Origin: Ophelia neglecta | Lineage: Eukaryota | NCBI GenBank assembly: GCA_965285935.1 | Contig: OZ260662.1 | Span: 89,032,001-89,096,000, forward strand | Length of the DNA: 64,000 nucleotides | Direction: 5' to 3' | Shown here: piece by piece, positions 14,820 to 64,000 of the stretch | Numbering within the stretch: the first letter of the stretch is position 1 | Layout: each line of letters starts with the position of its first letter | Made by a program: the position numbers and the translations under genes | The notes under the pieces: generated by a model | What the model was told of the DNA's origin: nothing | Seen by the model: only the letters and a program-made list of their open reading frames with translations | Database searches by the model: none

Positions 14820-16107
14820 TTTAATTAGGGATAATATTTTCCTCATAGGGTGGTGAATGTTGTTAAGAAAAAGATATGTGTTGACTTTTTTCCGCAAATT
14901 TTGTATAAGCCTAATAATTTCCGATTATGTAAGTGGGTAGTAAAATGAAAAAGTTTAAACGTAATCCATCATTATAGTGTATTTGGAACTCCGAACTGCA
15001 TGAACTCTTGTCTATTAATACATGTAATAAGTGTTTTCCCAATGGGGGATTTTCTCCTTTCTCCTTCACCCTCGCTGTATAAGACTCTGTGTCACGTGAG
15101 TCGTCATCCGCCTTCGTAAGGTAGTCCGCATCTTTCGCATAATCTGTGCGAATTGAAACAATAATAAAAATACTCAGATCACAAATTATCAATATATTTA
15201 TTTAGTATGTACTGTTTAATTAAGTTATTTCATATACATATACAGTGTATATAAATGTAGCATACATTATATTATAAACACAGTTTATGCGCGATAAGTG
15301 GATATACACAGGTTATATACATGTATGTATGTAGAACATATAGTGATGATTTGTGATCATTTAATTTGTTTGAAATTCCAGCGCCTGTGCCTTTAAGAGT
15401 GCCTTTTAATTATATTTAACCCCATGCCATAGTGACCCAGTTAGCCTCGAGACGGGCGATGTGATTCACATACAAATTAATGCTATAAACATACCGGTGC
15501 AAGATGGGCATCGTACCAAAGTTAGTTTTTTTTTTTTAATTTGGAATTAAATTCTTTTAATTTTTTGGGTGCAAGAATTAGTTTTTTTCTAAGTAGAGAG
15601 TTCATAATTATGGGCAAATTGAGATAGTTGATAAAAAAAGTGCAGTCTTCGTTATCATTTCTTATACTGAAATCTATGGTTTTCTCCTTTACGGCATTTT
15701 CTCAAAACTTTGCCCAGACTGCTTGTTGATAAAATTTACTATCCTATTCATGCTTAGGTCTAGATGAAAGAAAAACAGTTACAACTAGTTTGACGGCCCT
15801 TTAAAGAACAAAAAGAATTAAGGTTTCATGAATTAGCAACAAGAACTTGCCTGGAGGAGTTTGCGGTGACTGCAGAGCAAACGATACAGCGGTAACGATA
15901 GTGCTTATGTACCCCGCGCCAATCGATATGTCAGAGCGAGGCCGAGGGCTATAAATAGCTACAAACACCAGCGACCGTAAACAAAGACATGTGCTCGCTG
16001 TGGCCGTGAACTCACATTAGCAGTGTAGCCAGCCAGGTCTCGGATCACAAACTAGCAGGGCGCCTGTTAACACGGCTATTCTTACTACCTACTGACAATA
16101 ACATTGG
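14820..16107 (-). pseudogene. Decayed GT31 gene, copy 6 (two exonic segments)
   Basis: Segment ~15850-16107 reads MLLSVGSKNSRVNRR....ETW..MSLFTVAG. The segment after acceptor cgcacag (~15143) reads DYAKDADYLTKADDDS (intact DxD motif), then LPTYIIGNY*AYTKFAEK (cf. PPYxxG.GYV.S..VA), then PYEENII in another frame. Confidence 0.65.
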
Positions 16108-24257: not shown

Positions 24258-27033
24258 ATGCCGAGCGAATACAAGAAGGAGGGCGGCTGGGGTTGGGTCA
24301 TCGTGGCCGCCTCGTTCCTGATTCACGTCATTGTCGCTGGTGTCGCCTACAGCTGCGGAGTGTATCACGTGATCTTTTTGGAGTTCTACGGTTTAAGTCA
24401 CTTCAAGACGGCATGGGTAGGGGCGCTGCTGATGTCCATGACAGCCCTAGCGGGTAAGAAAACACACATAATACTACTACTTTGCAATACTAAAAGAAGT
24501 CTGGCGCGGACCTTGCATATATAGAACCTTTTTTTCTGTATGAAGGATACCCATCTTACCATTTATATGATTATTTTTCAGCTATTCCAGGCACGTTTAT
24601 TAGCTACCATGTTGGTTATCGGGCGACAGTGGTGTTAGGCGGGCTGATAGCGGCAGGGGGTCTAGCTATCTCAACAATATGTACACAACTCTGGCAAATA
24701 TACCTCTCCCTAGGACTGATGACAGGTAAAATATTTGGCAATATATAACCTGATAGTTATAAAAAATGCAATGTGTCGTGAGACTCAGGAGATGACTCTT
24801 TTGATGATTTTTCAAGGTAAATTTTCAAATCTACCAAAATGGACATAAAATGTATTTGTTTAAAGTAGGCTAAAGCATCATTTTTTTCTGAACATGATTG
24901 TAATTAATTCTTGAGTATCCAATCATTGTCAAGTGTTTATCACTGGATTTAAATGGAAAATACATGAAGGGGAAGGGCCTGTTGAAAACAGTGACGGCCC
25001 GAGGCCAAATCTAGGGTATCTGTTCCAACCTTGCCCTGTTCTTGAACCGCATTATTGTATACACAGCCTGGTAGACCTACCATGTTTTTACTGGCGATTA
25101 GATGCAGTTTACATGCCTAGATCGCATCCAGGTTGGAGAGGAGCTCGGAAAAATAATGTGCCTCCTCTATAATCAGGATGTCTCAATTATTGAATTACTG
25201 GAACTCCTATAATGCTGCCACTTACTACATTTTCGGATTTTCATAAGAAGCACCACATCCCCTCCCCCCCCCCCGCCTCCCCGGAGACCCTTTCAGCCAT
25301 GTCCACTTCCTGTTTATTCCATTGATTTTTTTAAACTCTATTAAAACCCTCACTCATCATTTGTTAACTGGCTCTGGGAGAATTTCAATCAAGTCTAGAT
25401 GGCTGAGGTCAGACCGTCATTGCATCCGGCGCAGTTAATATTGTCTAGTTATCTCCCGAATAACGACATCAAAGCCTGATTACAGTTGATGGATTTGAAA
25501 CCGAATTCCACAAATAAGTTAAATTCAATTAGGAACGGAAGTTATCCTTCTTCTCTTTTTCTGATTAATTGATAAATTGGACAAGTAATTTACCATGATA
25601 GACACAAACAAGTGTTGCCTCTCTCGGTTATATACCCAATATGTAGGACAATAGGAGCTCGTCGTACCATTAGCATTTTTTGTAAGTAAATCCCGTAAAT
25701 ATATCTTTTTCTTACAGGTATAGGCTTTGGCCTGGCGCTCACTCCTTCAATCCTCATACTTGACTATTATTTCTATGATCACCGCAATTTGGCCGCAAGT
25801 ATTGCTGTTTCCGGTTCTGGATTGGGAATCATGGCCTTTCCAGTGGCCGCGTTTCACTTGGAGGATCTGTTGGCCTGGAAGGGAATGGCACTTATATTCA
25901 GTGGTATCTGTCTCAATATTTGTGTGTGCGCAGCTATAATGCGCAAGGTTGACAGAAAAGAGGAATGTGGTCGCAGTAAACGGAAGGCACTGAAAATTTT
26001 CGAGCCTTCAATCTTGAAGAGCCCCGCGTTCCAAGCCTTAATGTGGAGTAATTTTTTCTGGTGTGTTGGAGCGTCAATTGTGTTCGTGCATTTGTCCGAA
26101 TTTGCCTCAGCACGTGGTGTTACTAGCGAGGATGGGGCCATGCTGATTGGTGTCGTCGGCATTTCTTTGCTCGTCAACAGGGCGATATTCCAGTTATTTA
26201 GCCATTCCGCCAAATTGGACCATGTCAGCAATGTTTTATGCACCGTTTGCCTGACGGCCATTATGACCGGTCTGTTTCCGGAACTCTTCAACCACAAAGC
26301 CGGCATGATAGGATACGCCATGTTGTTTGGGATGCACATCGGCTATTGGACCACCTTTGTGCCGTATGTGGCACAGGAGACCATCGGAGAGGAGTACATT
26401 GCTTACGGACGGGGGTATCTGACACTGTCTATAGCACTAGGATTGGCAGGAGGACCTCCTCTCGCCGGATGGGTTTTAGACTACAAAGAGGACTTCGATA
26501 TTATCTTCTACCTCGCGGGTATGTTTATCAAAATACTTCAACCATCTGCAAACTGTCGCCAAATAATCTTCATAAAATGTAATTGTTACACAACTATTCA
26601 TTAAATTAACATGGTACTACTATATATTCTATTATCTTTGTTGGAGGAATGATTGTATGAGAACGATGAAACAGTCGAGAGATTGTTGACCTGCTTTCTC
26701 CAAAATCCCCGAAAACACATTGATAACTTGTATAATATAACTAGTATAATATTCAATAGTAGACTAGTTTGGTTATTTTTGGCCTCATATGGGCAAGATT
26801 GCTCCGGTACTAAGTAGTATAGGTAAGTTGGCTCCACTGTGCACGGAAACTCAATGGCTTTCTATGAATATTCCTTCTTAGGAGCTTGTCTCACAGCGGC
26901 GACGTGTATCTTGTTGATGGCAAACTTCAAGCGATGCCACTACCGGCCCGGCATCGACTTCAGCGATTGTGACTCCGTGAGCAGTGCCGGACGCTCAACA
27001 TTGCAGGGAGACGACGAAACACTGATTGTGTAA
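24258..27033 (+). CDS. SLC16/monocarboxylate-transporter-family MFS protein, 4 coding exons, 430 aa
   Basis: Exons 24258-24453, 24582-24725, 25718-26518, 26882-27033, all GT-AG and phase 1, total 1293 nt with an open frame. Has the EGGWGW N-terminal SLC16 motif, GYR loop motif, YF...R.LA.SIA.SGSG and GPPLAG. Confidence 0.93.
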
Positions 27034-32528: not shown

Positions 32529-32683
32529 GGGAAGACAAGGTGACTTCAGCAGACACTTAACAATAATCAAAATGGAAAACTGAATATATTTTTCTAGTCT
32601 TGTGCCACGTATGATATCGTTAGACATATCTTCTGAATAGTGTCAATCGATTGCAGAGTTTCGGATCTGGTAACGCAAAAGGA

Positions 32684-35419
32684 ATGGCTAGTAATATCAC
32701 CAACCGATGGACGACCAGCCGTGAAACGCTACTTTTAAGTGACACAGATGATCTTTTTACTGCGACTGTGACTGTCGTTACGGATTCATATGTGAATAGC
32801 CCCGATAGTACGACGAAACACTGCGAACTGTCATTCGCTGTGGTTTTGACATTGTCTTTGGCAACAGTTATTATTGGTGTTCCGAAAGTGAAAGATGGTA
32901 TAGAATCTCTATGGCGCCAGTGCACCACGCGTGGCTTTGGTAATGATCCACCATGTTATTTGCTACTCGGAAATTGCGCAATAGGATGCGCATTTCTTTG
33001 CCCAGCAAACATCCTATTTTTTATGGTTTGTAAAGTTTCCTACATGTCAATAGAAGGAGGTGTTATCGCTCTATATATTCATTGGTATTTGTGGCTGGTG
33101 CTTCACACTATGTCGGCTGTTCTTACTGCCTGTGTTTCAGCTCACAGACTGCATCAGATAGAATCTTGTTTCTTAAAGAAAGAAAGAAGACGACCGTCGA
33201 AGCTCAAACAATGGATTTTCGGCCCGTTGCCTGGAATTTCGGCAGTTACTCTCTTAACCATTACCTTCACAGTAGACGTTGTCAAAAACCAAGCGGATCC
33301 ACTAGACCTGGGAATGATATGTTCTACGGAGACTCTTGCAAGCTTGCTGTCATCTATGGCACATGGTAACTACACCCGGTGGTTGCAGTGGACAATTAAC
33401 TTGGTTTCACTGGCTGTGACTGTTGGGGGATACGCAATTTGCATCTGGCGGGTGAGGTGTTTAACAAGGGCAGTGTCCCCGAGCAAAGAAGGTCAAATAT
33501 TCGGCGAGGGGAGAGAGACAGTAAATAGTAGGCGTCAGCGATTTTCATTGAGCTCCTGTAGGGGCCTGGGCAGGTCTTCTCTTGCCTTAACCAGAACAAG
33601 TGCCCAATGGCCACTTTCCCGAATGGATTCAAGCGTAGATACAACGGCAAACCCCCTACTAAATTTGCGGGTGGCTTGGGGTCTAGAGAAGGCCGTTCGG
33701 GTACTAGGAGCGGACGAACGCCACAGCAGATCAAGTAGGTCCTTATCCTATCAGACACCCTCCTTATTCAGCCGCATAAAATCTTCCATTGGTAGGGATT
33801 CTGATATTGACTGCGAGACAGATTTGTCACAGAGCGGTACATTTAGACCAAATCGGGCCAGTACTGTAGGTAGCTGCGCGGCCGAAGACATAAAGGCTGC
33901 ACGCATGGCAGCTCTTGGAAAAGTTAGACTTGCAGGAGAGTCTTTCAAAACGATCGCGGAAATGGAGAACACAGTCGACCAGCGACCCTTGCTCCGAAGC
34001 CTCCGTCACACGCGTCGCTACCCAGGCTGTAAGTCCATAGGTCGCCTTAGTGTGGATAGTCTAGACATTCCTGGCTATGTAAAAAATAGGCCTCGCTTAG
34101 ACTCGGGAAGCTCAACAGGTTCATTTAAGTACAGTTTCGAGTCGTTAGTAATTAGAAAGCCCAATGAATCAGAGAGCGAAACAGCGCAGGTTTATACAGT
34201 AGAGACTTCCTGCCAAACTGACCCAGAACCAATTGAACAGGCTAGAAGCTCGGCTACGTCCAAATCTAGTTTCATTCCTCAAAATTCTGTTAAAAACACT
34301 AGATATTCTATGAACGGCGAGGAAGATTTCCTTTGGTCAATCACAAGAGCAACAGAGGGTAACAAACAGGAAGATGAAACTATAAGCAATTTAGAAATAT
34401 CAGAGGAAAAAATGAAAAGCAATAAAAACCTCCAAGACAGGTGTTCACCAGCCGAAATAATCTTAGACAACGACATATCAGAAAAAACATTAGCCCAAAC
34501 TGGTGAGATATATCTCGATTCAATGGAGGCGCACACAAATGAAGAAACAGATGCTGAATTGCCCCATGGAAACATAACTGGGGGACCGGACACACCGGCA
34601 GCTGATGGCACTACTGAAGGAGTTCGGACCCCAAGAGCAATGTCACTTGACCTTGGCGGGTCTAGAACTTTCGTGGACCGAAGGATGAATACTTCCGGTG
34701 GATGGACATCTAGAGCTGAAGATGAACAAGTGCTGCCTCCCAGGCCCAGATGTGGTACATTGACAAACATTGACGAAGCAAGGGCTTCCACGGGGACAAT
34801 GTCGTGGCGAAGGGACACTTTTCCAGGACACCCTTCTCAGCCGGCCATTCGGGTTGAAAAACCATCAGTTGACACAAAAAATTCATTCATCAACGATCAA
34901 CCAACATTCCTCAACTATCGGCGCACGCGTTATGGCGGTAACAAGGTGGTGTTCAGTGACATTTCGGGCTCTGTGTGTTCTAATCGCTCAATTACTGACA
35001 GTATTACGATCGCTCCGCCTATGTTAGCATCTCCCGTGGTGAGCAGACGGCGACGGCCCCAACTAACTCTAGATTCTCGTCTCTTGTCTCGCGGGAGTCT
35101 GTATATCATGCCTGAGAATGAGTCTGCGGAATCTACTAGGCAGGCTCCAGTATACAATGTAATACTCAAACATTCCATAGTGAAAGTATTAACATTCCTT
35201 TCTCTCTATCTTCTCTCGAACGTTATGTTCCTGGTTCAGACGTTCGTAAAGACATCGACAGTGTACGCGCTATATATTGTAGCCGAGTGTATCTCTCTTT
35301 TATATTTTGCTGTTACACTTTACGTGTATACTATTAGAACTAACAGCAGGACTACTGCAACTCAGCCGCAGCAATCCCCAAGTCGTCCCAACACACGGTT
35401 AAGAAGTTCATACGTGTGA
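32684..35419 (+). CDS. Intronless divergent 7-TM (rhodopsin-like) GPCR with giant ICL3, 911 aa
   Basis: First in-frame ATG at 32684 (MASNIT, with an N-glycosylation sequon). Five hydrophobic helices to ~33457 (TM3 ends SAHRL at the DRY position), a ~573-aa polar loop, then two helices from 35177 (TM7 ends TLYVY). Confidence 0.8.
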   Translation: MASNITNRWTTSRETLLLSDTDDLFTATVTVVTDSYVNSPDSTTKHCELSFAVVLTLSLATVIIGVPKVKDGIESLWRQCTTRGFGNDPPCYLLLGNCAIGCAFLCPANILFFMVCKVSYMSIEGGVIALYIHWYLWLVLHTMSAVLTACVSAHRLHQIESCFLKKERRRPSKLKQWIFGPLPGISAVTLLTITFTVDVVKNQADPLDLGMICSTETLASLLSSMAHGNYTRWLQWTINLVSLAVTVGGYAICIWRVRCLTRAVSPSKEGQIFGEGRETVNSRRQRFSLSSCRGLGRSSLALTRTSAQWPLSRMDSSVDTTANPLLNLRVAWGLEKAVRVLGADERHSRSSRSLSYQTPSLFSRIKSSIGRDSDIDCETDLSQSGTFRPNRASTVGSCAAEDIKAARMAALGKVRLAGESFKTIAEMENTVDQRPLLRSLRHTRRYPGCKSIGRLSVDSLDIPGYVKNRPRLDSGSSTGSFKYSFESLVIRKPNESESETAQVYTVETSCQTDPEPIEQARSSATSKSSFIPQNSVKNTRYSMNGEEDFLWSITRATEGNKQEDETISNLEISEEKMKSNKNLQDRCSPAEIILDNDISEKTLAQTGEIYLDSMEAHTNEETDAELPHGNITGGPDTPAADGTTEGVRTPRAMSLDLGGSRTFVDRRMNTSGGWTSRAEDEQVLPPRPRCGTLTNIDEARASTGTMSWRRDTFPGHPSQPAIRVEKPSVDTKNSFINDQPTFLNYRRTRYGGNKVVFSDISGSVCSNRSITDSITIAPPMLASPVVSRRRRPQLTLDSRLLSRGSLYIMPENESAESTRQAPVYNVILKHSIVKVLTFLSLYLLSNVMFLVQTFVKTSTVYALYIVAECISLLYFAVTLYVYTIRTNSRTTATQPQQSPSRPNTRLRSSYV

Positions 35420-37601
35420 CTGAAATAGAGAAAATGCAACGTCCTACATAATTAATACATCGATGACTTTATGCAAGAAAGTCTTTATCTCTTGTGCTCT
35501 GACATTAGCCCTTATGGCCATTTATATATTGTGTGTATTATTATATTGGTTTGTGAATGTCTGCTTGTAAACAACTTGAAAGCGACTCTATCACGATGTC
35601 AGTAAAACTCGATGAATTTGTACTTTGTCCTCCTTACCATTAGATGTCAGTTGACATAGATCAATTTTCTGGGTCATGGTGTAATTTGAACAATTTCAAT
35701 ATTTCATGTGTTGGTCAACCATGAGGCGATTTCGATTAGATTTGCTACGTATTTAGTGTGCGTTTCCATTGAAGCGGAGGCGCTCTATTTTAGATAGAGC
35801 TCTAGAGCTCCTATCATACGGTTCAGTGACCATAGAGAACTGCCGTCGCAAGCATGCTTAGAGTAGACGCACACTAAGTATAGGTTAGAGTGTGAGTTCA
35901 GCCCTATTACCTCGGATAGGGCGGCGAGTCAATCGAGGCGTATAGGGTGTCAACGGCTCTTTCGACCTCAAATTTGGTTGGAACTATAGACATTGTGAAA
36001 TTTGACCAAGTATTACATTACTTTATTTCTACAGACATGTATACACTGGAGTATCAAATATCAAACAGCTGGATTAAGGACTATAAGGCATTATAGTCCT
36101 TAGCATCGGGGGCCCAGGGTTTGGAAGTGAGCGATATGAACGGGTCTTTTTAGTGATCTTAATAGTTGGTCATTTTCCGTAGGTGCGTTTTGTGTGTGTG
36201 TTTTGGGACGGGGTGGAGTTGTTTTGCTACACATAAACCTCGCCCTTGTATAATATCGCTACATACTGTTAATGATTATACTGGACAATGAACACTTTTC
36301 TGAATACTGCATTGTATTTTTTATACGTAATTTGTTCAATTTTCATACCTTTCGTTCAGCATCACAAAATTTAAATTTAGATTACATTATTTCCACTGCA
36401 AAAGACAGTTGTACTGTTACGCGTTAAATAATCAAATATACATTGTATTTATTTCCTGACCCACCAAGTCAAATAGAAATCAATCGAAAGAAGAGAGTTT
36501 TAATGGTACTATCTATAACATTCACGATGTCGTAATATAATACAATAACAGTCAATTTTTGATTAAATAAGTTTCAGTTATCTTTTACCATGTCATTTAT
36601 TATAACAATACTAGCAATCATATTACAATCGAAAACATTCTGTTCTGAAAAGATATCGAATTTATCGTATGATTTAAACCATTTTTGGGACAAATTATAG
36701 GGCTACAAAATAAAGATTTTTTATAATTTTGTTCAAAGGCATAAACAATTTAACGATACATACATAACATGGTTTAAATCTGTAGGAATATAGCAACTGC
36801 TTCAGATCCTTAAACTTTGAAACAATCTATAATACTTTTGAAACGACCCCATCTATAATGTATCACCACCTCATTCAAATCAAGTAATCAAAGTTTTCAG
36901 AAGGCATGGTGAAGCGGGGTGGGGCGATGAGCACACATCTTTTACACACCCTTTTACACATCTAATTTTACACACGAACGATCACAGAGCTGCTGTAAAT
37001 AATTTGCCCTTATTGCGTATAAACTTTAAAATTTGTCCACGTTCACAATATGGCCATTTAAATGCCAGTTCTTGCACACAGGCACATTAATATCACAAGG
37101 AAGTCAAGTTCTATTATACCTAATCATATATATATAACGAGCAAGTCGCATGTACCAAGAACAGGAATCATCTGCTCGTCACCTCGGACTACACAAATAA
37201 ATGCAGATATAAGTTGCTTGCTTGCTCTTAATTACCCAAATTATATTTTTAGCGAAAAAACCGTCTTTAGTCAGCATGTTTTAAGTCTGAATCAAAATTC
37301 GGTTTCTAATAACTATGTCAAGATAATTATTACACAAACTAAATAATCAAGCATATTTCAAAGGAGGAACGGCAAACGAATAATTAATAAATTATCCAGG
37401 TAGAACATAATCAAAAGGGGAGTTTATGGAAGGACAAAAAAGACGGATTATTGATTATTCTATTTAGACAGCTATGAGTTTACAACCTACTCACACATAT
37501 ACATATGTATAGTATGTATGTGTAAAAATTATGCCATGGGTTTGTCAAAGTATATAAAATTACTCATGCTGACAATAACTTTATAAGCGTGAATACGATA
37601 A

Positions 37602-40512
37602 TTAGCGCCGTTCATTCATTAGTAATCCTAATTCTATGTCATCTATGTCAGCTAAGTCAGTAGCCAATGTTCTCCTGACATCAGCGTCAGTCACCGGCGC
37701 CGAGTCGTGAACACATTTTACAGGTGTTTCCGTACCCGAGTCTTCTGCTAAGTCTGTCTCCCTGTCGCTCATTCCACCCATGAAGGGTAAGGTTAGATTT
37801 CGGGCACACTCTTGGTCAATGTTATAAAGGGGGTCGGAGCTCTGGTAGCCTTGACTGCCATAAGGACTGCCTCTGACCGATGACGAAACATGATTTGGCG
37901 GTCGCCATCGTTCAACTTCAGTGGGCGCCAACTCGTGTAAACCTTGCCTCCGGGCTGCACTCCTAGGATTTTTGCGGTCCAAAGTTGCTATAGCTGCTCT
38001 ATAGTCCTCTTCATCTACATTGGTCTCACTTTCACATTGAGGGAACACTACATCAGATTCACTCCTGCTGTGATGCCTACCAAGCCACGGTCTAAACTGC
38101 GGGTTAGAAGACGCCACAAAGGGCCCACTGTTCTCCTCTGGTGATGTTGGGACTACCTCGTTTGGCACATGCTCATTATTGTAAAGATTACAGCGTGGAA
38201 GTGAATAGTCCCCATTGCCAGCTGCCAAACGTGCAGAGCTATGACAGTTGGATTCTGAAGCAATCATTGATGTTCTAGTCTTCCCTTAAAATAATATACA
38301 TATCAATATGTATCTTTGCAGTTCTCAAATTTTTAGCATTACATGCCAAAAATCAATTCCGCTATTATATTTATTCAATATAATAATCACAGGAAACATT
38401 ATTACTATTAATTAATATCAGTTTACGTAAATCTATTTACTTACTCCTTTTTCTCCTCTTGTTTTTAATTGCTACTATCGCCACGATAATTCCGACGACA
38501 ATGAGAATACATATTATTCCCCCGACCACAATATGCCAAGTTTGGACCGTCTGCTTGTCATGAGTAGCCAGCGGGGATGGTTCATCCGTCGGTTTGAGTG
38601 CTATGCGTTTCAGATAAACATCTGTCGAGAAATGGCTTTACATAACATGACCGGTTGCGCTAACGTAACATCAACAAGCTCAAAATGTATCGAATAGCAT
38701 GACTTCCACATTACACATTATCAAAGAAACAATCAAACTGACTTTTACTTGAAAACCTAGTAAATGGATATCAATTTCGAGAATCTGGGCACTTACCGGG
38801 GCATTCTCGTTCGCATTCCTTCTGAGTATCTCGGACCGGGTCGCATATCTCACTGCACTGATGGCATTTTTGGGTGACTATAAAACAATGATGAAACGAG
38901 TGATCAAAAATTACATATTAATTATGAAAATTGAAACCCTGTTAAGCAAGCTACCAGTGATACCGAATTGATTGTAGACAAATACCATTCAACTCCATTC
39001 AGACACAGTGAGTAAGGAAACTAGGGAGGTGGCATTGGACAGAGGAATCATTCTTATGGTAAGGGGGAGGGCCATTTGAAGTTCAGGCGATGAATTTATG
39101 TTAAATAGTACCCAATATACATCCCAAACCAACAGCCAGTAACGTTGGTTTAACACGGGATATGCATGAACCATTCTTCCCTCACTACGCATGCGCGACC
39201 CAATTAGTCAATAGCTTCATTGCCACAGCCTTGGCGGTAATGCCTGCAGCGTGACATTCAGTGAATGTAAGTGGGTGTCATGTATTGTTTTTGTTGAAAT
39301 TACAAATGGCGTTTGCCTTCAAACGCGGTTAGGGATGGCGAACGTGCGTGGGCATCATGCAGTCAACAATGATAAGACTGGCTCAACTTTAAGGGTAACT
39401 ACTTGCCAAACCCCTAATCTAACGTTTACTGCTCTATCTTTAAAGCACTTAAGACATGTTATATGTTAGATAAAGTCACAACCATCCAACGCCAACAAGA
39501 GTGATCAGTAGTTTTACTTTTATAATGCTCTGCATTAATTTGGCCTTATAAAAGAACTAGATAAAGTCACAACCATCCAATGTCAACTAGAATGATCAGT
39601 AGTTTTACATTTATAATGCTCTGCATAAATTTGGCCTTAAGAACTACTTCACAAAGATGCCAACAAAATGGTGAAACCTGGTAACCTCGGGTGACTAGCG
39701 AATGGCCGGCAACATGGTAGCACCACAACATGATAACGTGAGTCTTTTAACATAATAGTTGGGAAATTTGATTTAAAAAAAAATATCAGTAAAAGGGCTT
39801 TGATTGGCCAAGCGTTACCGGATGTACAAGAAGGCCCTGGCAGATAAGTGCATGTGCCGTCATGTTATCTTTTTTATAGCCTTTGTAAATTCCTAACCAG
39901 GCGATTCTAATCGAATATATACCACATTATTATAGGGAAAGGGATAAGATAGTAAAGGTTTCTGTCCGACGGTTGTGTAATTGCTGAATAAATCAGTTAA
40001 TCTGTTATACCCTATTGGTAGATACTAGATAGCAAGAAAAAATTCTGATCAGATTCAGTTTTTCTTGAAAGTGTTTTTTGAAAGTACGTCACCAGTGGAA
40101 AAGAATGTAAATTTATTGATGATCCTGCTTTTTTGCAGCTAAAAAATACCCTGGAAGACCCTACGAAAGTCAGCTGTTGAGACTGAATATAAACAATCCC
40201 ACAAATCTTCAAAGGGGAGGACAAGAATTTGTCTTAAAAATCAACAATCATTGTTTTTATTATCCATGACTATTGTTCTATTCACCCACAGTTTTTATCT
40301 AATAACTGAGGATTAGTGGTAAATAATTCTCAGACTATTGAATAGAATTTCATCACCGTTGTGTTTTATCATATGATTTTGCCAATATAAATAAAGAGTC
40401 TACCTTTGTCTATGTACTTATCCGGTCCAACACACTCTCCCGCGAGCCGCCCTGTCAACACCAGGAGGCCTAGACTTACATACAACCCGCCATGTTCCCC
40501 TCTGTGAGACAC
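37602..40512 (-). CDS. Single-CRD TNF-receptor-like type I membrane protein (BCMA/TACI/Grindelwald-like)
   Basis: Exons 40512-40404, 38877-38797, 38621-38445, 38284-37602 (GT-AG, phase 1, frame consistent). They give LYVSLGLLVLTGRLAG, then ECVGPDKYIDKVTQKCHQCSEICDPVRDTQKECERECP, TM WHIVVGGIICILIVVGIIVAIVAI, KNKRRKRRK and a ~230-aa tail. Start codon unresolved. Confidence 0.8.
39467..39646. repeat. Two-copy ~91-bp tandem duplication (intronic)
   Basis: tagataaagtcacaaccatccaa...ataatgctctgcat.aatttggcctta starts at 39467 and again at 39558. Confidence 0.9.
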
Positions 40513-41029
40513 CTGTGAAAGGAAAGAACACAGTATATAAACAAACAAAAATACTTCTTAAGCACAAGGCACCTGTTAAATAAATGCAAGTACCCATGGG
40601 TATAAAAGATGGCCGACCATATCAGTTAGTTCGCGCCAGCTGAGAGTAACGGCATCGCCCACATTATTATATTCATTTTATGTTTAAGTTAAATGTTGTT
40701 TCTATTGCATAAAGCATTAAACTATAGCCCATCGACCTTACATAGAGTCAAGAAGTGCCCGTGGTCACTATACATACATACAAAATAGTACCGATACACA
40801 AGGCCACCAGTGAACCCGGAAGAGAACTTAAATAACTCCGGACAGAAGTATACAAACAACTGACATAAAGCAAAAACAAAAAATAAATGAATAGGTAAAC
40901 CATACAGCAATACACGTCTGCAAAGCTAGCAAATAAACTAGAAAACAAGCACCTCAAAGTCATAAATTAGCGTAATCATACAGCTAGACTAAGATAGGGT
41001 GACTGGTAGAGTATCAAAGCATGAAATAC

Positions 41030-48300: not shown

Positions 48301-50718
48301 TGCAGACAAGATCGGCGTATAGTACCCTTCCTGATCTATCGTCGTATATTCTAGGCAGTTGTTATTTTCAATTTGTAACATGTATTCCCCTGTAAACTTC
48401 AATTTTTATGGTTGCAATTATAATAAACGTATCTTATCCTATCTTAACTAGAATTTGAGACATAACGATTTGGTCGTGATTGAACCATCGACTGTACAGA
48501 TAGGCCTACGCTCTTCAACAATGATATTTTCAAAAGAGGAAAATATCATGACGCGCTGAACTTTTGTTTTGAATCCCTTTCTATGTATACAGAAACTTGG
48601 CTTACGATGAGTGAAATACATGTAGGACTAATATGGTAGTAGGCCTATTAAGTGTTTACCATGCAGTTAGCACATTGAATGTAATGATCATGGCTCACAA
48701 TATATATTGAGCATATAATACAGTTCTTCAGCACTGTATGCCCTACAGCATCACGTTTTTAGATGTTGTGTCAAAATGGAAAAAAAAACCCAAACAATAA
48801 ACTAGGAAAATAAATTATAAAGCATCATTTTAGACCTTTATAATGAGAATCAGAGAATGAGAGGCAGCCTGAGTACCGGTAGAGGTGCTCCTTGACTATA
48901 GTTGGCAGTGCTCCAGTTTCGCACACAACAAACGCACACGATTCATACCAGGCATGACATTAAGAGCAAAGCCTACTTCCGCAATTACTTTTGGTCATTT
49001 ATTAACGAATCTGGAATCACGAAAGATTGTGATGAATCAGCCACTTGCGGGATCGTGGTCCCGGGCGTGGTGACCACTGTAGAATTTCAATTCGGACAAA
49101 TATATTGACCCAATCGTTAAGTGTACGAATTGACAGATTCAACAATTAAAAAAAAGACTTTTCGGGACATTTTTGCACATCGGATTTATTTCAAAATTAT
49201 TTATGAACTATTGAGCAGTACTTTTGTAATGGATTCACGTTATTTTACGGGTCATAACTTCTTACACTACTAGTGCTTTTGGCTTTCCATTTCCGTTCAT
49301 TACAGTCATTACTGTTACGAATCGCGTGCCTATATTGACTGACAAGTTACGTCAAACAAATCTTATAATCAGATAATATCTATTAAATAAGTGGGAATAT
49401 ATTCCGGTTTTTTCCAGGAAGTTGACTTTTACAATGCTAGTGGGAACTTTTGATTTGGGTCAATTGGGGGAGACCCAAACGTTTGAACATTGGTCACAAT
49501 CTCTTACTTTGTTCTCTGTACACAATCAACGTAGATACTGTTAAAATGTAACACTTAGACAAATGATTGATTGAAAGTGCATACAATCAAACAATTTAAT
49601 TACCAAAATCATTGACCTAAGATTTCCATTCAATATCATGGTAACATTTAATTTTGCAGCATTAAATTAACGTTGAGCAGTTCCGGAGTTGTGGCCACAC
49701 AAATAACAACGTCTGACTAACTGTGTAGAGGTTTGTATCAACTTCCGCCCTCATTACAACGGGGGAAATAACCTAAAACAAACAAGAAATATTCATCGTA
49801 CGTGAAGTAGAAGACAGAGTGTCTGAAGGAGTCATTTGATTGAAATTAAAATCAGAATTAAACACCATAAATATGCTATCAATCAATCAATAGCAATCAA
49901 ACTTCCTGAAGCCGCTCGTAGCCAATTGACCTTTGTCTGACTCGTTTGGCTTTGATACTACTGCGGCATATTAATGATGACAGCTGAATTGGCTGGATTA
50001 ATTATTAGACTAAAATTGCTGACGAAATAAACTCCAACATTAATTTTGTTTTCACTAGGAAAATTGAGTTTAATGGATTTGTCTTTTGTTACGAAAGCCA
50101 GCGATTGAATATAATCATATTTTTATTAAGCATATATACTTTTATGATAAATGCTCGTAGATATGGTGAGGTAGCAAAGACTCTGAGGGTTAAATGACAA
50201 CGCCTCATGAGTATTCCTTCGCATTATAAAGATAAATTGGGAACCCGGAAGATATATTGTAATATGGATAACAGTACCCTTCAGTAAATTTACATTTCTT
50301 ATCTCGTATCTCGCATTTTACTTCGATGACTAGTGCATGCTTGAGTTACAAGTACGGCATATTGTACAGTGTGTTTTGCATTAAAACACGAAGACTTGGT
50401 CCTATTAATTAAGTGTTAAATGCTTGCACACCGTGCAAAGTACCTAGTATAATGAGTGCTCCTTTTTTTTATTATACTTAAAGTCACTGTTTATGGGACA
50501 GTCGTTGTTACACCCAGTACTTCCCAGTGTCAACACTTACGGTGATTATTTTAACTTAATCAGGTAGTTTTGTGAAATAAGTCGAGAGAAGAGTAAGCTT
50601 CTAGAGGTATATATACAGCGGGATTACGAAAAAACGAATAGTCCGTTTCAGCTTGTCAACAAGTAACATTGGTCTTAAAAAACCATTTGTAACACACATT
50701 TGCAAAAAAACACCGGCG

Positions 50719-51552
50719 ATGGACTCTTACAATTACCAAGCATACGATCGCCGTGATGACCGCCACGTCAAGGGCGGATCACGTGATACGTACAGTGAAG
50801 CTATCCAGTGGGAGTCGTCAAACAGAAAACCTGATCAGCGACAATACTATGACAACCCGGCATACGACCTCAGCTCTTGGAATACAGAGCAGGGGCAGGA
50901 CCATCGCGACTATCGCCAAACCTCTCCAAGCAGACGACATGAGGGCGAAAAAGATGACCGCTACGCGGAGCCTCTAGATTACAACAGCCGATATGCTTAC
51001 AGGGATGATAAAGCAAAAGGGTATCCAGAGAGAGAGCCGAATAAAGCTTGGAAACAACCATACGATACTAGGGACACGCGTGATAGAGGTAATGATGAGA
51101 CAGACTATCGAAACAATTATAATCGGTATCCTAACGATAAACGAGAAGACAAATATAGGACCCCGGCAACCGACTATCAGGGAGACGGCGACAAGGGTCG
51201 CCATGACGACGACTCGGGCGATTATAGACGTCACCATGATGACAGAGATGATTATCGAGGCCGTTATGACGACAGGGGCGATAATCGGGATCGTTATGAA
51301 GATAGAGATGCCTACCAGGGCCGTTATGAATACCGGGACGATTATCGGGGCAGTTATATGGACCGGGAAGACTATGGAGGCCGTTATGACAACCGGGACG
51401 ACTACCGAAACCGTAATGAAGAAAGAGGTGAATATGGCCGTTCTGACAGACACAAATACCAAGGCCGCCATGACGACACCAATACCAATCGAGGCCGGCA
51501 TGGAAGCATTAATGATTATTGGGGCCACAGGGGAGGTTCTTCTCCTCTAGAG
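50719..51552 (+). CDS. First coding exon of a type II membrane protein (R/D/Y-rich cytoplasmic N-terminus)
   Basis: Acceptor tttcag at 50651, ATG at 50719, phase-0 donor GAG|gtcagt at 51552. Contains an NPxY motif (NPAY 50854-50865) and 30-bp coding repeats. Confidence 0.75.
51196..51504 (+). repeat. Coding minisatellite, ~10 degenerate 30-bp units (consensus ~GRYDDRDDYR)
   Basis: ggccgttatga(c/a)..cggga.ga.tatc recurs with a 30-nt period. Confidence 0.85.
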
Positions 51553-51989
51553 GTCAGTAATTACTTTTTGTCTGGCACATACAGTTAGTACTTTCTCTAT
51601 AGATTTGGCCAATGAGCCAAGCCCCCAAATTTTGTCCGCCGGTACCATGTGAGGGGAATAATGCTCATAGTGGCTTTGTGCAAAAGTGACTGTTTTCATA
51701 ATTTATAAAGCTGCCGTTTTGTTCTGTATATACCTGCAAACCGTATAAAGATATGTCAATCCATTGTTTCAGAGGAATTTAAGCGCAAAGTGTTTTACTA
51801 AATATAATATTTTTACCTAAATTGAGCTTACTTTTACTATTACCCCAAACATATTATTCCTATGAATCGGATTGAACAATTGGAGCACCCTGCAATTGAT
51901 GAAGCCTAATTATGACGGCCAATTTTCTAAAAACCTAATTTGATGCTTTTAGCTATAACAAAATTTCTAAGGCACTGTTTTCACCCAGT

Positions 51990-55269: not shown

Positions 55270-58200
55270 CTAGTTCAATCCACTGAGCTGTTGCAATCCA
55301 CTGGGCATATCCGTGAGATCGGCCGAACCAGCACCTGGTTCCCTATCTGAACCTTCACAACACGTACATGGGTTATCCTTCCCGGGGCTTGTTCCCACAA
55401 TGCGCCCCATAGGCCACTTTCCACGCCCTGTGTCTGGAGCGATAATGAGCACTATATCTCCGACCTTAACATCACGATGCGGAGTGAACCACTTTTTGCG
55501 GGCAGTGAGACAAGGGAGCCACTCACGCATCCATCGATGCCAGAAGTGTCTCACCAACTCCTGCACATGCCGCCATCGACGCCTAGGACTAAAGTGAGTC
55601 TTGTCCACAGACTCGGGGGCAAACGGTCCACCCACGGAGCCATGCAGGAATTGGTCTGGCGTGAGTGGTGTGTCATCTTGAGGGTGTGCTGACTGGTATG
55701 TCAGTGGTCGTGAGTTGATGAGGCCTTCGGCCCCCGCGAACGCCGTAAGTAGTTCCTCATCTGTAACCTCTGCGTTTCTCAAGATGGCGTAGATTGCGTT
55801 CTTCGCAGACTTGATCATCGCTTCGTGGACCCCACTAAAGTGTGGTGCTAGTGGGGGGTTAAAATGCCACTTGATGTACTTGTTAGCTGTAGACTGTTCG
55901 ATTTTGCCTTGATCAAGGTTTGCCACTAGTTGAAGGAGTTCCTTATCGGCACCAATGAAATTTCCACCGTTGTCTGATAACATATCCTGTGGTCGTCCTC
56001 GGCGAGAAGCAAAACGGTAAAACGCATTCATAAAAGAGTCAGTGTCCATACTATAGGCCAGTTCGAGGTGCACTGCCCTTGTTGCTAAACACGTGAACAA
56101 GCAAATGTATCGCTTTGCTCGGGACCTCCCTCTACCCTGTTTGGTGTAGAATGGACCACCATAGTCTACTGACGTTTGTGTGAAGGCACGAAGTGACGCT
56201 TGTAGTCGTAATTTTGGCAGTGGCGCCATGATCTGACCTGCTGGTGAAGCCTTTAACTTTCTGCATGCAGCACACTCTTTTTCCCAAGCACGGATCTCTT
56301 CTCGGGCGGATATGATCCAATATCTAGTAGATATAGCGGACAAGGTCTGGTTGGTGCCACAAACATGTTTGCCGTCTTCATGATACTGCTTCACTACGAG
56401 TTTTGTCGCCCAATCCTTCCTGGGCAGTATAACTGGGTAACGGACGTCATATGGCAGGAATTCTGCATATTTGAGGCGCCCATCAGATCTGATGACACCC
56501 TCTTCATCATGAATTGGCTTTAAAGCTAGAAGTTTGCGTCTTTTGGCAGTTCCTTGCCCTTAGATAAGGCTAAGTATTCTTTCCAAAAGGCTTTTTTCTG
56601 GGCCTTCCGCACAATTTGGAACTCGGCTTCTCTGAGATCATTGGGCTTCAACTCTCCATTGGATCCCATTTCTTGTGGAAGTTTACAATTGTCTATGAAG
56701 CGATTTACCCATGCCTGAACCCGAGTTAGACGCCTCCAGTTGGAAAATCTCTTAGGATCTAGATACCATGGTGTTGGGTCTTCTTGGTGGGCGACCATGG
56801 TCGTTTTAGTCCCCAGTGGCACATCACTCTTTTCTGCCAGCATTCCTACACTGATTCGGTCTCTGTAACTCTTTTTCATTTCCTTACTTTCTTTTACCTG
56901 TTTCTCAATACGATTTTCTGGCCAGTCGACCTCACTCTCTTTTAAGAACACAGGCCCCTGCCACCAGGTTTCTGCACTGATCAATTCACCAGCAGCGATA
57001 CCACGTGTTAAAAGATCAGCTGGATTGATATTTGTAGGTATGTATCTCCACTGGTCAGGGCTTGTGCTGCTTTGGATGTTACCAATTCGGTTCGCTACGA
57101 ACGGCTTGAAATGTCTGCTGTGACCTCTGATCCACCAAAGTACATTAATACTATCAGACCAGAATACTGTCTCACTCAATTTCTTTTGTAGTATATTTGT
57201 GATAGTCTCTGCCAATCTTAGCCCCAACACTGCTGCCAATAACTCCATTCGAGGGATGCTCATAGCTGTGAGGGGTGCCACACGGGTTTTAGCTGCAATT
57301 AGATGACATGAGACCTCACCATTGTGGTAAGTATTTCTGGCATATACGGCACTGCCATAAGCTTGCTCAGATGCGTCGACAAATACATGAAGAGACATCG
57401 AGTCCACCTCACTGTCCATCTGAATACACCTGGGAATTCTGACCTTATCCAAGTTATATAAATTGCATTAAAAAACCCAGGGGATCAAACAAAGTTGCCA
57501 CTTTCTTCAACACATTCCGCTTGGTAAACTGGAAACTGTCTGGCAGAGGGTGTGACTTGAAAGTGAATATGTCATCATTTGCAGACCATTGTATCCTCAG
57601 TGTCTTAACGGAAGGTAAGTAACACTTGTCCAAGTCAACCTGTGAGGCTCTGCCTTCAGGGGGACCCGCTGCATGACAACAGGTGAACTTGACAGCCATT
57701 TCCTGGCATGCATACCTGCCCGAGTCCAAAGTTCTGATAATTGTTCATACAGGGCTATGCCAGTTTTGGTCATCTTTCACAGAGTCGAGGCTGTCATCCA
57801 TGTATGTGGATGACAAGACTGTTTCAGCAGCGAGAGGAAATTCTTTGTAATGAACTTCAGCATGGTGTTGTGATACTAACTGTGCCAAGAAGGGCGATGA
57901 ATTTACACCGAACACCACACGGCTGAATTCATAGACATCAGGATCTTTGGTAAGATCCATATCTCGCCACATAAATCTATGATATGGTCTGTCTTGTGGG
58001 GATATTTCTATTTGTAAGTACATTTCAGCGATGTCAGCTGCCAAGGCCACAGGTGATCTTCGGAAACGGATCAAAACATCGAACAGTTCAACCTGTAATT
58101 TTGGCCCTTGGTCTATACAGTCATAGAGTGACACATTTTCACATTTGGCGGAGGCATCAAACACAATGCCAACTTTGGTTGACTCCTTATCTGGCCGCAC

Positions 58201-61119
58201 CACAGGAAAGTGCGGAAGATACCAACATGGCTTCTGTACTTTTTCTGTCTCAGAGACTTTACGAATATAACCTTTTGTCATGTAGCTATCAATAACTTCT
58301 TTGTAGGCAGTACTAAGCTCAATGTTTTTGGAAAGTCTATTCTCTGTACTTTTCAGCCGATGGAATGCCATCTCACTATTGTCTGGCAATTCACCTGGAT
58401 CAGTCTTCCAAGGGATGGACACTTGGTAATGTCCATTCTCAAATTTGGTTGTCATAAAGGCTGAGTCTTTACACTCTGTTTCTTTGGGCCGGTCCTATTA
58501 GCATCCAAACCTGAATTTTCAATTTCCCAGAACCGACGTATCATTTGATCCAAGTCTACTGAACCTCAAGTAAAGTATGTCTGGGCAAAGTGAGTTTGAG
58601 AATTATTTAGTCTTGTCAAGGGATTGCCAATACAAGTCCAGCCAAGGGGAGTTAACCTGGCTATGGGGTCTCCTGGCTCACCTCTCACATCCTGGAGGGA
58701 ACAATGTAACTCGGCATAGTCAGCACCAATCAAAATATCAACCGTTGGTCGTGGGCCAGCATCTGGGAATTCTATTCCCCTTAAATGACTCCATCTTTTG
58801 GCGTTTTGCTGCCAGCTGACCACTTCCATGGCCCCTGTGACTCTATCAACTGTGAATGCATTTACTTCTTCATTTATCTTTCTAGCCAAGCTCTGAAGGT
58901 TAAAGGTCACTGGCATTGTCTCAAATGTATCCACCTGACCATTTAGAACATTCACTGTCACTTTTTGAGTTTGTCCTTGAAGCCCCAATTCAGATGCTAT
59001 TTCTGAGTTTAAATATGTCTGAGTACTGGCATCGTCAAGGAGTGCATTAATTTTGACTGTCCTTAGGCCAGCTTTCAATAGCACAGGCACAGTCCTAAGC
59101 GCTATGAGGGATCTACTGTTACTAGGAGATGAGGCCATGGTAGTAGTATGCGATCTCCCTTCGGACTGCTTCTCTATAGAGGGCTCCACCGGCTCCTTCG
59201 GCTTAGTTTTGTCAGACACATTGTCTTCGCCTGGTTCTGCGATATTCGTGAAGGTCCCCTTGCTTTTATTATCATCCGACTTCTTGTCGCTAAATACTCC
59301 ATCGACCTTCTTTTCATGAAGCATTCTGCTGTGTGTCGATTTACAATTGTCAATGCCACACACACGGCTTCGAGGGCAAGTACTTCCCTGGTGCCATCTA
59401 TTGAGACACCAGAAACCCAATTTTAGTTCCTTGGCCTTGTCCCACCGTTGTGAGACTGACATTGTCTTAAACACTTGACAGTTCCACAGTCCGTGAGGGC
59501 TGTCGCAAAGCACACACTTCCTATCCACTTTCTTTCTGGGCAACTGTTCCTCTAGTTGAGCAACAAATGATCTGGCACGGCCAACCTTATCTGTATTATC
59601 TCTCATTCCTTTTATTGTTTCTGTTGCCGTTGTAAGGATTCTGCTTCCTTATTGGCAAACTCTCTCAAGGCTGGAATACCCTCAATTTTACAATTCTCAA
59701 AAATCCATCTGTGGTACTTAGCTAACAGTGACTCGTTAAGTTTTCTTTGAAGTGATATATACAGTGAACCACTGCCCAGTTCATTTCCTTGATTCGCTTC
59801 TTTCAAATTGACTATCAGCATTTCCAGCAATTCAGTGAATCTTTCTAAATCTTTGCCATTGCCATCACGGATTTGCTTAAAGGATTCTAACTCTTGCATT
59901 CGCAGTGCAAGTAGTCTGTTTTTTCCACCATATTTACGTTCAAGTATTTCCTTAGCTGTGTCATAAGCTGCTGCCGAATGTCCTAATCCCTCAATCACCC
60001 GAAGTGGCTCACCTTGCAAGCTGCCCCTAAGTTGTAGGAGTTTGTATTGAGGAGTTGCTGGTGCTTTATCGACACATGAATAAAACACAGCCTTCCAGGA
60101 TTCGTAGTTCTTTTTGTTACCACTGAATGTTGGTATGCTTACTCTTCGAAGTTGTCTCCATAGGTCATCTCCGATCTGATGTGCAGTAGACGCTGCATGT
60201 GATCGCGACTCACCAATCGCATTGATTGGCACAGGATTTGACTGGTATAATGAATTGCCACTGTAGTCCGATGATATGTCTCCCATTAGTGCGGAATGGG
60301 GTACTGACGATAGATTTTCCATAGGAGTTGGTGACAATGCCGATATGGGAATCATATTTTGTGGTGTAACACCCGGAGTGGTTCGAACCGGAGGTAAAAA
60401 TTCCGGAGTAGATAAATGCTGAGGAGGCACGAATGATGATTGATGCTCAGCTGGCGATGACATAAATTGTTGGTAGGGTAGAGCCGAGGACATGTACACG
60501 GTCGAAGTTGGTGCTCTATGAGACGAGAATCGTAGTTGCTGCTTTACAGGAGTATGCTGATCCGAAAACATTACAGAAGTAGTATCAGGCTTGGGCGGCG
60601 AATGTGTATACCCATGTGCCTGACTTGACGATGTAGAATGAGCCATAGTTTGAAATGAAAGCTGATTCTCTAATGCTATACGATTCTTCTCGATTTGTAA
60701 TTCAATATTTGAAATTTTCCTTCTACCCTCTTCGATTTGAGACTGCAACTCTTCCGTAGGATTGGTAGGTGATTCCATCTGACGCCGTATGGGGACGGAT
60801 GTACGACGCCCGTACGATAATTCATCATTGTCAGCCTGCTCTAATATTTCATTTGCAAAATCTTCTACACTCTCAAATTCTCTTTCAATTTTTTCCATCT
60901 CATCAGAGATTTCATTTAAGCGCAGACCATCAGCCTGAATTTTATAGTACTCACGTGACTGTCCCATTATTTCCATAACATTGTCCATAGCCATCTGTAC
61001 GGCGTCCATATTATCGCTCACTGCGCTCCGAGCCGGCAAGTCAGATTCCAACAGCCGAATCTGCGACGAGTAAAACGAGCTTTAGCTACTGACTTACTTC
61101 TCTTCAAAGTTCCGTCCAT
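55270..61119 (-). pseudogene. Frameshifted BEL/Pao gag-pol
   Basis: ATG at 61119. Gag IPTFSG..W..F, three Cys/His knuckles, protease ALLDDAS, RT YMDD, RNase H HVFVDAS..AYG, integrase VDYGGP/SDNG/E, C-terminal FW.RW..EWL..KW. Broken into 6 ORF-track pieces plus a short N-terminal fragment. Confidence 0.95.
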
Positions 61120-63729: not shown

Positions 63730-64000
63730 GTCTGTTTGACATGCCTATGAGAACTTATTTATAAATGATAAATTTAAAGTCTTTGCTTGTGGTAAATTGT
63801 GTTTTGCCTGCCCTGTCAGCAAGCTATTACTTTTCCTGCGGGTTGAAACATGGTGTGCAGAGAAAGAGCGAGGTTATATTAAAACCAATTACTGAAAATA
63901 ACATGGGAGATTAACATGGGACCTTCTATGTAGGTCTCTTTTTTCTATGCTCAACTTGTATACTATGATTTAGAACTATATTTTTTATGACATGGGTTTA

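What the first reader, a model, noticed from the sequence alone, without database searches (positions are those of the whole stretch)
37602..40512. BCMA/TACI/Grindelwald-type single-CRD TNF receptor in an invertebrate
Seen: splicing three small exons absent from the ORF track gives C-x5-Y-I-D-K-V-x3-C-x2-C-x3-C-x9-C-x3-C, a short stalk, a TM helix, a basic stop-transfer and a long tail. The tail has no evident death domain but contains SPEE, matching the (P/S/A/T)x(Q/E)E TRAF motif. Known: this six-Cys spacing with YxD matches the CRDs of TNFRSF17/TNFRSF13B (Y-F/W-D-x-L ligand-binding hairpin) and Drosophila Grindelwald. Inference: a probably unannotated member linking insect Grnd and vertebrate BAFF/APRIL receptors, located next to decayed LRR/TLR genes.
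Basis: partly seen in the sequence, partly recalled or inferred. Interest (0 to 1): 0.7.

Follow-up and report, generated by a model that had tools for sequence, protein, structure and literature searches.

The report
Invertebrate BCMA-like TNF receptor gene
Four stretches of DNA join in one reading frame into a predicted small membrane protein that likely folds like the fly receptor Grindelwald and the human B-cell receptor BCMA and likely binds a TNF-type signal; it is one of about twenty relatives in this genome and of a kind already reported across invertebrates, so it is mostly ordinary.

Summary
The core observation holds. Four minus-strand exons (three GT-AG, phase-1 introns) give one open frame of 349 aa: hydrophobic leader, one six-Cys domain, TM helix, basic stop-transfer, and a tail predicted disordered. 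The genome holds at least 22 related loci. Two on C8 share the intron positions, the 81-nt exon 2 and a C-terminal DDIELGxxMN motif that occurs only in these three genes. A paralog's domain model matches Grindelwald (Z 5.7, 1.7 A over 39 residues), then BCMA, TACI and Fn14. Relatives occur in brachiopod, gastropods, nemertean and amphioxus; the profile reaches fish TACI. The reference allele has no in-frame ATG (GTG); a second allele has ATG there. Grnd-like single-CRD receptors, with a Capitella expansion, are already in a preprint, and this scan noted similar genes in other genomes. Verdict: new member of a known kind; ligand and signalling are inferred.

The parts
40404..40512 (-). Exon 1: 26-codon leader with a hydrophobic core (signal-peptide-like, inferred), first Cys and first strand of the hairpin (Y-I-D-K); acceptor tttcacag, donor gtagac
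   Evidence: the donor falls at the same codon position and phase as in both C8 paralogs
40510..40512 (-). First codon of exon 1: GTG in the reference, ATG in a second allele (likely start codon; possible start-loss polymorphism)
   Evidence: 40512 C>T in a 150-base contig in each of 3 DNA runs of one sample, each allele at about half depth; codon effect
40476..40493 (-). Out-of-frame ATG opening a 5-codon frame inside exon 1
38797..38877 (-). Exon 2 (81 nt): five of the six Cys, CxxCxxxC-x9-CxxxC
   Evidence: 81 nt also in both C8 paralogs
38445..38621 (-). Exon 3: short stalk, transmembrane helix (about 38538-38467) and basic stop-transfer run
37602..38284 (-). Exon 4: 227-aa cytoplasmic tail, predicted disordered, no death domain detected
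   Evidence: no Pfam family at E<=10; single-sequence model, mean pLDDT 44.5, pTM 0.18
38133..38144 (-). SPEE, a chance-level TRAF-like match
37614..37643 (-). Conserved C-terminal motif DDIELGxxMN, shared with the two C8 paralogs

Best explanation
Four exons join in one open frame into a predicted single-pass membrane protein with one six-cysteine outer domain, which likely acts as a TNF-family receptor of the single-CRD (Grnd/BCMA/TACI/Fn14-fold) kind. Shown: exon layout, open frame, Cys spacing, TM helix, a paralog family, a conserved C-terminal motif, and at least 10 TNF-domain and 126 TRAF-type MATH matches in the genome. Predicted by proxy (a paralog's domain): a beta-hairpin followed by a helix-loop-helix. 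Inferred from the Eiger:Grnd and APRIL:BCMA precedents: three receptors dock by the hairpin into the grooves of a TNF trimer made by this animal; clustering brings the disordered tails together, and short linear motifs recruit adaptors (TRAF-type likely; JNK output by analogy with the fly). There is no death-domain route. The residue run under selection in the tail is DDIELGxxMN, not SPEE; it is likely a docking site, either for a signalling adaptor or for COPII export (it contains a DxE di-acidic motif). The protein is likely type I, starting at the exon-1 ATG of the second allele; the GTG reference allele would be weakly translated or null unless an upstream coding exon exists.
For: Open spliced frame with canonical splice sites. 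The junction adds 12.6 bits to a paralog HMM. Two C8 paralogs have the same four-exon, all-phase-1 layout, the same intron position and an 81-nt exon 2. The motif pattern, built from these three genes, finds them and nothing else in 762 Mb; control 0. A shuffled tail shares any 6-mer with either paralog in 274 of 20,000 trials. The family profile's top three PDB sequence hits are BCMA and TACI (E 0.005-0.008). Model of paralog L021 (pLDDT 81): Foldseek ranks Grnd 1-2 (TM 0.77, 0.70) and BCMA/TACI next, all at E>0.1; VIA-align gives only 5 of 48,161 chains at Z>=2, namely Grnd (5.7, 1.7 A, 39 aligned), BCMA twice, TACI and Fn14. The profile finds 66 proteins, 50 with a full domain, including a teleost TACI. 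The nearest Atlas clusters of the Lingula relative include grindelwald (0.93), a mollusc cluster with TACI/BCMA domains in 15-18% of members (0.93) and Fn14 (0.92). In 440 bases around exon 1, two of four exonic allele differences are synonymous in this frame and none touches a Cys. TNF ligands and TRAF-type domains are present.
Against: The fold was modelled on a paralog (50% identical over exon 2), not on this gene's own domain, which has 13 rather than 12 residues between the first two Cys. Z 5.7 is below the tool's own caution level of 8, and Foldseek E-values are above 0.1. Pfam hits of nine paralog domains to BCMA-Tall_bind, TACI-CRD2 and TNFR_c6 are all under the curated cut-offs (best 21.6 against 27 bits; one of nine has no hit), and exon 2 alone hits Grnd only at E 8.3. 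Whole-tail similarity to the C8 paralogs is weak (83 and 34 of 1000 shuffles score as high). No TRAF consensus is conserved among the three tails. The reference allele has no in-frame Met before residue 129, and the exon-1 donor (gtagac) departs from consensus. The ligands compared with PDB resemble TRAIL/FasL/RANKL/LT-alpha rather than BAFF/APRIL (3 of 10 checked).
Confidence: 0.7

Rival explanations
1. The protein is a real surface molecule with this fold but acts as a decoy or scavenger for TNF ligands, or binds a non-TNF partner; the conserved tail motif serves trafficking only.
For: The only conserved tail element contains a DxE di-acidic motif, a known Sec24/COPII export signal type (PMC2718219, passages). 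No TRAF consensus is shared by the three tails. The family is expanded and diverse, as fast-evolving recognition families are.
Against: The conserved run is ten residues with invariant L, G, M and N, longer than a DxE signal needs. Tails of 227-480 aa are kept open in all three genes. TRAF-type domains are plentiful.
Confidence: 0.15
2. The gene is decaying: the reference haplotype is a start-loss null and the locus is on its way to a pseudogene.
For: GTG at the first codon, an out-of-frame ATG 19 bases on, first in-frame Met at residue 129. The one good upstream ATG-exon candidate (42946-42896) partly overlaps weakly repeated DNA.
Against: The second allele has an in-frame ATG. All four exons are open, all six Cys and the tail motif are intact, and the second haplotype shows no difference in exons 2 or 4 in run X1, whose 10 differences over 36000-40470 are all listed.
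Confidence: 0.08
3. One reading: a direct evolutionary link, orthologous to both insect Grnd and vertebrate BCMA/TACI, that signals through the SPEE TRAF motif.
For: Sequence is nearest BCMA/TACI while the modelled fold is nearest Grnd; the profile reaches amphioxus and teleost TACI.
Against: SPEE is chance-level and unconserved. The tree of 43 domains leaves 28 of 40 inner branches open and places this gene in no supported set. At least 18 six-Cys loci and 4 extra-Cys loci coexist here, so one-to-one orthology is not expected.
Confidence: 0.07

Closest known systems
Invertebrate 'grnd-like' single-CRD TNFRSF homologs (bioRxiv 10.1101/2024.07.27.603686: 115 homologs in 148 proteomes, 12 in one annelid, Capitella expansion)
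   Same: One CRD with CXXCXXXC, a TM helix behind it, a lineage-specific paralog expansion beside several TNF ligands.
   Different: The text read does not separate six-Cys from eight-Cys forms or type I from type III forms and names no tail motif. Its supplements were closed, so whether this gene is in its set is unknown.
Drosophila Grindelwald (PDB 6ZSY, 6ZT0; PMC8024323)
   Same: Best structural match of the paralog model (Z 5.7, 1.7 A, 39 aligned); hairpin plus helix-loop-helix; no death domain.
   Different: Grnd has 8 Cys (X2+C2 modules); this gene has 6. Loci with extra hairpin Cys lie separately on C1. No tail likeness was tested.
Vertebrate BCMA (TNFRSF17) and TACI (TNFRSF13B)
   Same: Six-Cys spacing with an aromatic-x-Asp hairpin; top PDB sequence hits of the family profile; the profile finds teleost TACI.
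   Different: D-K-V in place of D-x-L (Val is the commonest residue there in the relatives found: 24 of 79 domains, Leu 5). A signal-peptide-like leader, whereas BCMA and TACI are type III (PMC6001812). Pfam scores are under cut-off; the tail is 227 aa and unrelated by the tests made.
Fn14 (TNFRSF12A)
   Same: Single six-Cys CRD, type I layout; weak structural match (Z 2.4) and Atlas neighbour of the Lingula relative (0.92).
   Different: No sequence hit to Fn14; much longer tail.

Membership tests
Invertebrate grnd-like single-CRD TNFRSF | One CRD with the CXXCXXXC signature | tested here: met
   C41-C44-C48 and no second CRD
Invertebrate grnd-like single-CRD TNFRSF | TM helix C-terminal to the CRD | tested here: met
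   TM begins about 30 residues after C62; hydropathy 3.36 over 19 residues
Invertebrate grnd-like single-CRD TNFRSF | CRD superposes on Grnd (6ZSY/6ZT0) | tested here: inconclusive
   Met for paralog L021 (TM 0.77; Z 5.7, 1.7 A); this gene's own domain is split by an intron and was not folded
Invertebrate grnd-like single-CRD TNFRSF | Binds a TNF trimer 3:3 | not testable with these tools
   Needs a binding assay with this gene's ectodomain
Grindelwald proper (arthropod) | Eight Cys, X2+C2 modules (PMC8024323) | tested here: not met
   Six ectodomain Cys; loci with 8-10 Cys lie on C1
Grindelwald proper (arthropod) | Tail binds Traf2 and Veli/Lin7 | not tested
   No Grnd tail sequence was in hand
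TNFRSF13B/17 (TACI/BCMA) | Six-Cys CRD with aromatic-x-Asp hairpin | tested here: met
   Y-I-D at the aligned place
TNFRSF13B/17 (TACI/BCMA) | Asp-x-Leu at the hairpin tip | tested here: not met
   D-K-V
TNFRSF13B/17 (TACI/BCMA) | Type III topology, no signal peptide (PMC6001812) | tested here: inconclusive
   Exon 1 has a 26-codon leader with a hydrophobic core (11-residue hydropathy 2.2), but no signal-peptide predictor was run and the 5' end is unsettled; several paralogs seem to start at a Met just before the CRD
TNFRSF13B/17 (TACI/BCMA) | Pfam PF09257 or PF09305 over the curated cut-off | tested here: not met
   0 of 9 paralog domains pass; best 21.6 against 27 bits; the window's exon pieces give no hit
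TNFRSF13B/17 (TACI/BCMA) | A BAFF/APRIL-type ligand in the genome | tested here: inconclusive
   3 of 10 TNF matches were compared with PDB; best hits TRAIL, FasL, RANKL, LT-alpha; intron-split ligands may be missed
Death receptors | Intracellular death domain | tested here: not met
   No Pfam family in the tail; no six-helix bundle in a low-confidence single-sequence model
TRAF-binding TNF receptors | Conserved TRAF-interacting motif in the tail | tested here: inconclusive

The most novel reading that the evidence does not exclude
The six-Cys BCMA/TACI/Fn14-type receptor is an ancient bilaterian lineage, distinct from eight-Cys Grindelwald and present beside it in this lophotrochozoan. Here it has expanded to about 18 loci, switches between signal-peptide (type I) and leaderless (type III, BCMA-like) forms, pairs with TRAIL/FasL-like rather than BAFF/APRIL-like ligands, and one sub-family signals through an undescribed DDIELGxxMN docking motif instead of a TRAF consensus.
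Probability: 0.2. Interest if true: 0.6.

Novelty: new member of a known kind. Interest (0 to 1): 0.3.

Why it matters
Vertebrate BAFF/APRIL receptors control B cells, and one preprint (10.1101/2021.12.26.474206) called Grnd arthropod-specific. A genome with both six-Cys and extra-Cys single-CRD receptors, about ten TNF ligands and many TRAF-type genes is a good place to test where the BCMA/TACI-type domain came from, which ligands it took first, and whether invertebrate TNF signalling reaches NF-kB, which PMC7674686 names as open. Pfam misses these genes at its cut-offs and an intron splits this one's domain, so annotation will under-count them. The gene itself adds a member, not a new kind.

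Tried and rejected
RNA: no RNA holder listed; the three runs laid are DNA contigs of one sample and show no splice joints; this says nothing on expression. Complex prediction: one paralog domain (L021) with three copies of one TNF domain (L012) gave 'no answer' (0.01, mark 0.34; alignments not used, controls not folded); it is no evidence either way, and the pair was 1 of some 200 possible. Word-index protein searches found nothing for the tail (410 candidates), for a TNF domain or for an MFS exon at a too strict E-value. The Atlas does not hold the tail. A genome search with the last 40 tail residues found only itself; the C8 motif came from reading the paralog loci. Domain tree: unresolved, bootstrap not settled (43 domains chosen by hand from the own-genome loci and 17 of the stored relatives). 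A C8:40.82 Mb hit (E 0.94) showed no CxxCxxxC and was dropped. LRR-like pattern matches at 15,500-15,800 are scattered, broken by stops and unsupported by tblastn or Pfam. An upstream ATG exon at 42946-42896 is neither accepted nor excluded. A one-base slip that would put the internal ATG in frame was considered; neither allele shows an indel there. Literature searches; none was run for the DDIELG motif itself, so 'undescribed' is untested. The search of earlier findings near this place returned nothing.

Full report
Gene model. On the minus strand, exons 40512-40404, 38877-38797, 38621-38445 and 38284-37602 are bounded by GT..AG introns, all of phase 1. They join into one open frame of 349 aa; the other frames have 25 and 30 stops. 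The product has a 26-codon leader with a hydrophobic core, six Cys spaced C-x13-C-x2-C-x3-C-x9-C-x3-C, a stalk of about 30 residues, a TM helix (hydropathy 3.36 over 19 residues), a K/R run and a 227-aa tail.

Is the splice real? It rests on comparison. A search of the genome with exon 2 gave 16 matches and one with a paralog domain 21; with one more found there are at least 22 loci: 18 of six-Cys type (this one, 2 on C8, 14 on C12, 1 on C9) and 4 on C1 with 8-10 Cys. Five C12 loci near 71.1 Mb are near-copies of five near 61.3 Mb and may be a duplication or an uncollapsed haplotype. An HMM from 10 intron-free domains scores the spliced domain 48.2 bits, exon 2 with its intron 35.6, and shuffles at most 9.6. 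The two C8 genes have the same four exons, phases and first-intron position and an 81-nt exon 2. All three end in DDIELGxxMN. A DNA pattern built from the three finds only them in 762 Mb, control 0; that it finds them is by construction, that it finds nothing else is the result. Shuffled tails share a 6-mer with either paralog in 274 of 20,000 trials. Against this, whole-tail alignment scores are reached by 83 and 34 of 1000 shuffles, so only the motif is clearly conserved.

The 5' end. The reference exon 1 begins with GTG and holds only out-of-frame ATGs; the first in-frame Met is residue 129, inside the tail. Three DNA runs of one sample carry two 150-base contigs over 40441-40590 at about half depth each; the second reads ATG at 40512-40510, with two synonymous and one other non-synonymous exonic change. 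The simplest reading is a start codon present on one allele and lost on the reference allele. An upstream coding exon is not excluded: one candidate at 42946-42896 has a good donor but overlaps weak repeats.

What the domain is. Nine paralog domains hit Pfam BCMA-Tall_bind, TACI-CRD2 or TNFR_c6 in eight cases, all under cut-off. The family profile's best PDB sequences are BCMA and TACI (E 0.005-0.008); of 16 rows, four are unrelated. A model of paralog L021 (pLDDT 81; hairpin then two helices) ranks Grnd first in Foldseek (TM 0.77, E 0.13), then BCMA and TACI. In VIA-align only 5 of 48,161 chains reach Z 2: Grnd 5.7 (1.7 A, 39 aligned), BCMA 3.7 and 2.2, TACI 2.6, Fn14 2.4. These scores are modest, as expected for 39 residues, but no unrelated chain is listed. 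The profile finds 66 proteins among 1.84 billion; 50 have a full domain and some of the rest are unrelated repeats. Of 30 looked up, named ones are from Lingula, five gastropod genera, Lineus, Branchiostoma and a teleost TACI; one is labelled Piridium, probably host carry-over. The Atlas neighbours of the Lingula protein are a mollusc cluster, grindelwald, a mollusc cluster with TACI/BCMA domains in a minority of members, and Fn14, with TACI, BAFF-R and BCMA under 0.9. A tree of 43 domains is unresolved.

Sub-type. PMC8024323 (passages and the section on Grnd structure) gives Grnd eight Cys in X2+C2 modules, without the Asp-x-Leu motif of Fn14, BCMA and TACI. This gene has six Cys and D-K-V; Val is the commonest residue at that place in the relatives (24 of 79 domains). 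So it works like these receptors but is a member of neither Grnd proper nor TNFRSF13B/17. Paralogs come with a leader (L016-L019, L021, L023, L029) or with a Met a few residues before the first Cys and stops upstream (L024-L028 and both C8 genes); the latter look type III like BCMA and TACI (PMC6001812, passages), though upstream exons were not excluded.

Tail and pathway. The tail has no Pfam family, and a single-sequence model is low-confidence, with three short helices. SPEE is chance-level (48.9% of shuffles) and unconserved. DDIELGxxMN contains a DxE di-acidic motif, a Sec24-binding export signal type (PMC2718219, passages), but is longer than that needs; its partner is unknown. The genome has 10 TNF-domain matches, eight clustered at C12:19.6 Mb, 17 matches to canonical TNFR repeats and 126 to TRAF-type MATH domains. 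Three ligands checked resemble TRAIL, FasL, RANKL or LT-alpha. Ligand binding, clustering and adaptor recruitment are inferred from Eiger:Grnd (PMC8024323) and from general knowledge of TNF receptors.

Surroundings. No LRR or TIR remnant was found: 0 tblastn hits with 21 frames from TIR loci and no such Pfam hit in 189 of 267 open frames. TIR genes are abundant elsewhere (150 scored matches, nearest about 250 kb away). Neighbours are an MFS transporter exon, a 931-aa orphan frame and a broken Pao element. The mitochondrial contig uses table 5 with nad3-trnS-nad2-cox1 on one strand, which fits a lophotrochozoan (gene-order knowledge recalled).

Prior art. bioRxiv 10.1101/2024.07.27.603686 (abstract, Results, Discussion, first part of Methods; supplements closed) reports 115 grnd homologs, single-CRD with CXXCXXXC, in cnidarians, molluscs and annelids, with 12 in one annelid, and builds a tree with nine human receptors of grnd-like domain. 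bioRxiv 10.1101/2021.12.26.474206 (passages) held Grnd to be arthropod-specific. PMC7674686 (passages) notes JNK, not NF-kB, output in invertebrates. PMC3697994 (passages) gave no motif consensus. This scan noted similar genes in other genomes (e1-8148012, e1-9502168); these are unchecked notes and no support.

Verdict. A real, probably unannotated gene; a new member of a known kind. Interest 0.3. The extras worth keeping are the tail motif, the ATG/GTG allele pair and the coexistence of six-Cys and extra-Cys, leader-bearing and leaderless forms in one genome.

Noticed in passing
G000:C2:54.134-54.142 Mb (L014, L070): An intron-split TNF-domain gene (minus strand) lies tail to tail with a canonical multi-CRD TNF receptor gene (plus strand); a linked ligand-receptor pair is possible.
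   Followed up: partly
G000:C12:19.57-19.61 Mb (L005-L007, L009-L013): Tandem cluster of eight TNF-domain genes; the one compared with PDB is nearest TRAIL and FasL. It is on the same contig as most single-CRD loci.
   Followed up: partly
G000:C1:23.28 Mb (L065) and C1:35.27 Mb (L068, L069, L098): Single-CRD receptor-like loci with 8-10 Cys and a Cys in the hairpin, closer in layout to Grnd; the C1:23.28 locus is flanked by TRAF-type MATH matches within 7 kb.
   Followed up: partly
G000:C12:61.34-61.36 Mb (L021, L023, L029): Three paralogs carry a second Cys-rich segment right behind the CRD in the same exon.
   Followed up: no
genome-wide: Large immune-gene expansions: 150 scored TIR matches of 229 candidates, many in 800-1000-aa open frames, and 126 TRAF-type MATH matches.
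   Followed up: no
window 32624-35419 (+): 931-aa open frame with hydrophobic segments at both ends and a very long polar middle, GPCR-like in layout by eye, with no Pfam hit at E<=10.
   Followed up: partly
window 25699-26604 (+): MFS transporter exon (MFS_1, E 3.9e-14).
   Followed up: partly
window 55270-61081 (-): Pao/BEL-type retroelement in five frames, broken by frame changes.
   Followed up: partly
window 50605-51588 (+): 327-aa D/R/Y/G-rich repetitive frame with no Pfam hit; a TM-ending frame at 63441-63764 may belong to the same gene.
   Followed up: no
G000:C223 (L102): Mitochondrial contig with nad4L and nad4 directly after cox1, all on one strand.
   Followed up: no
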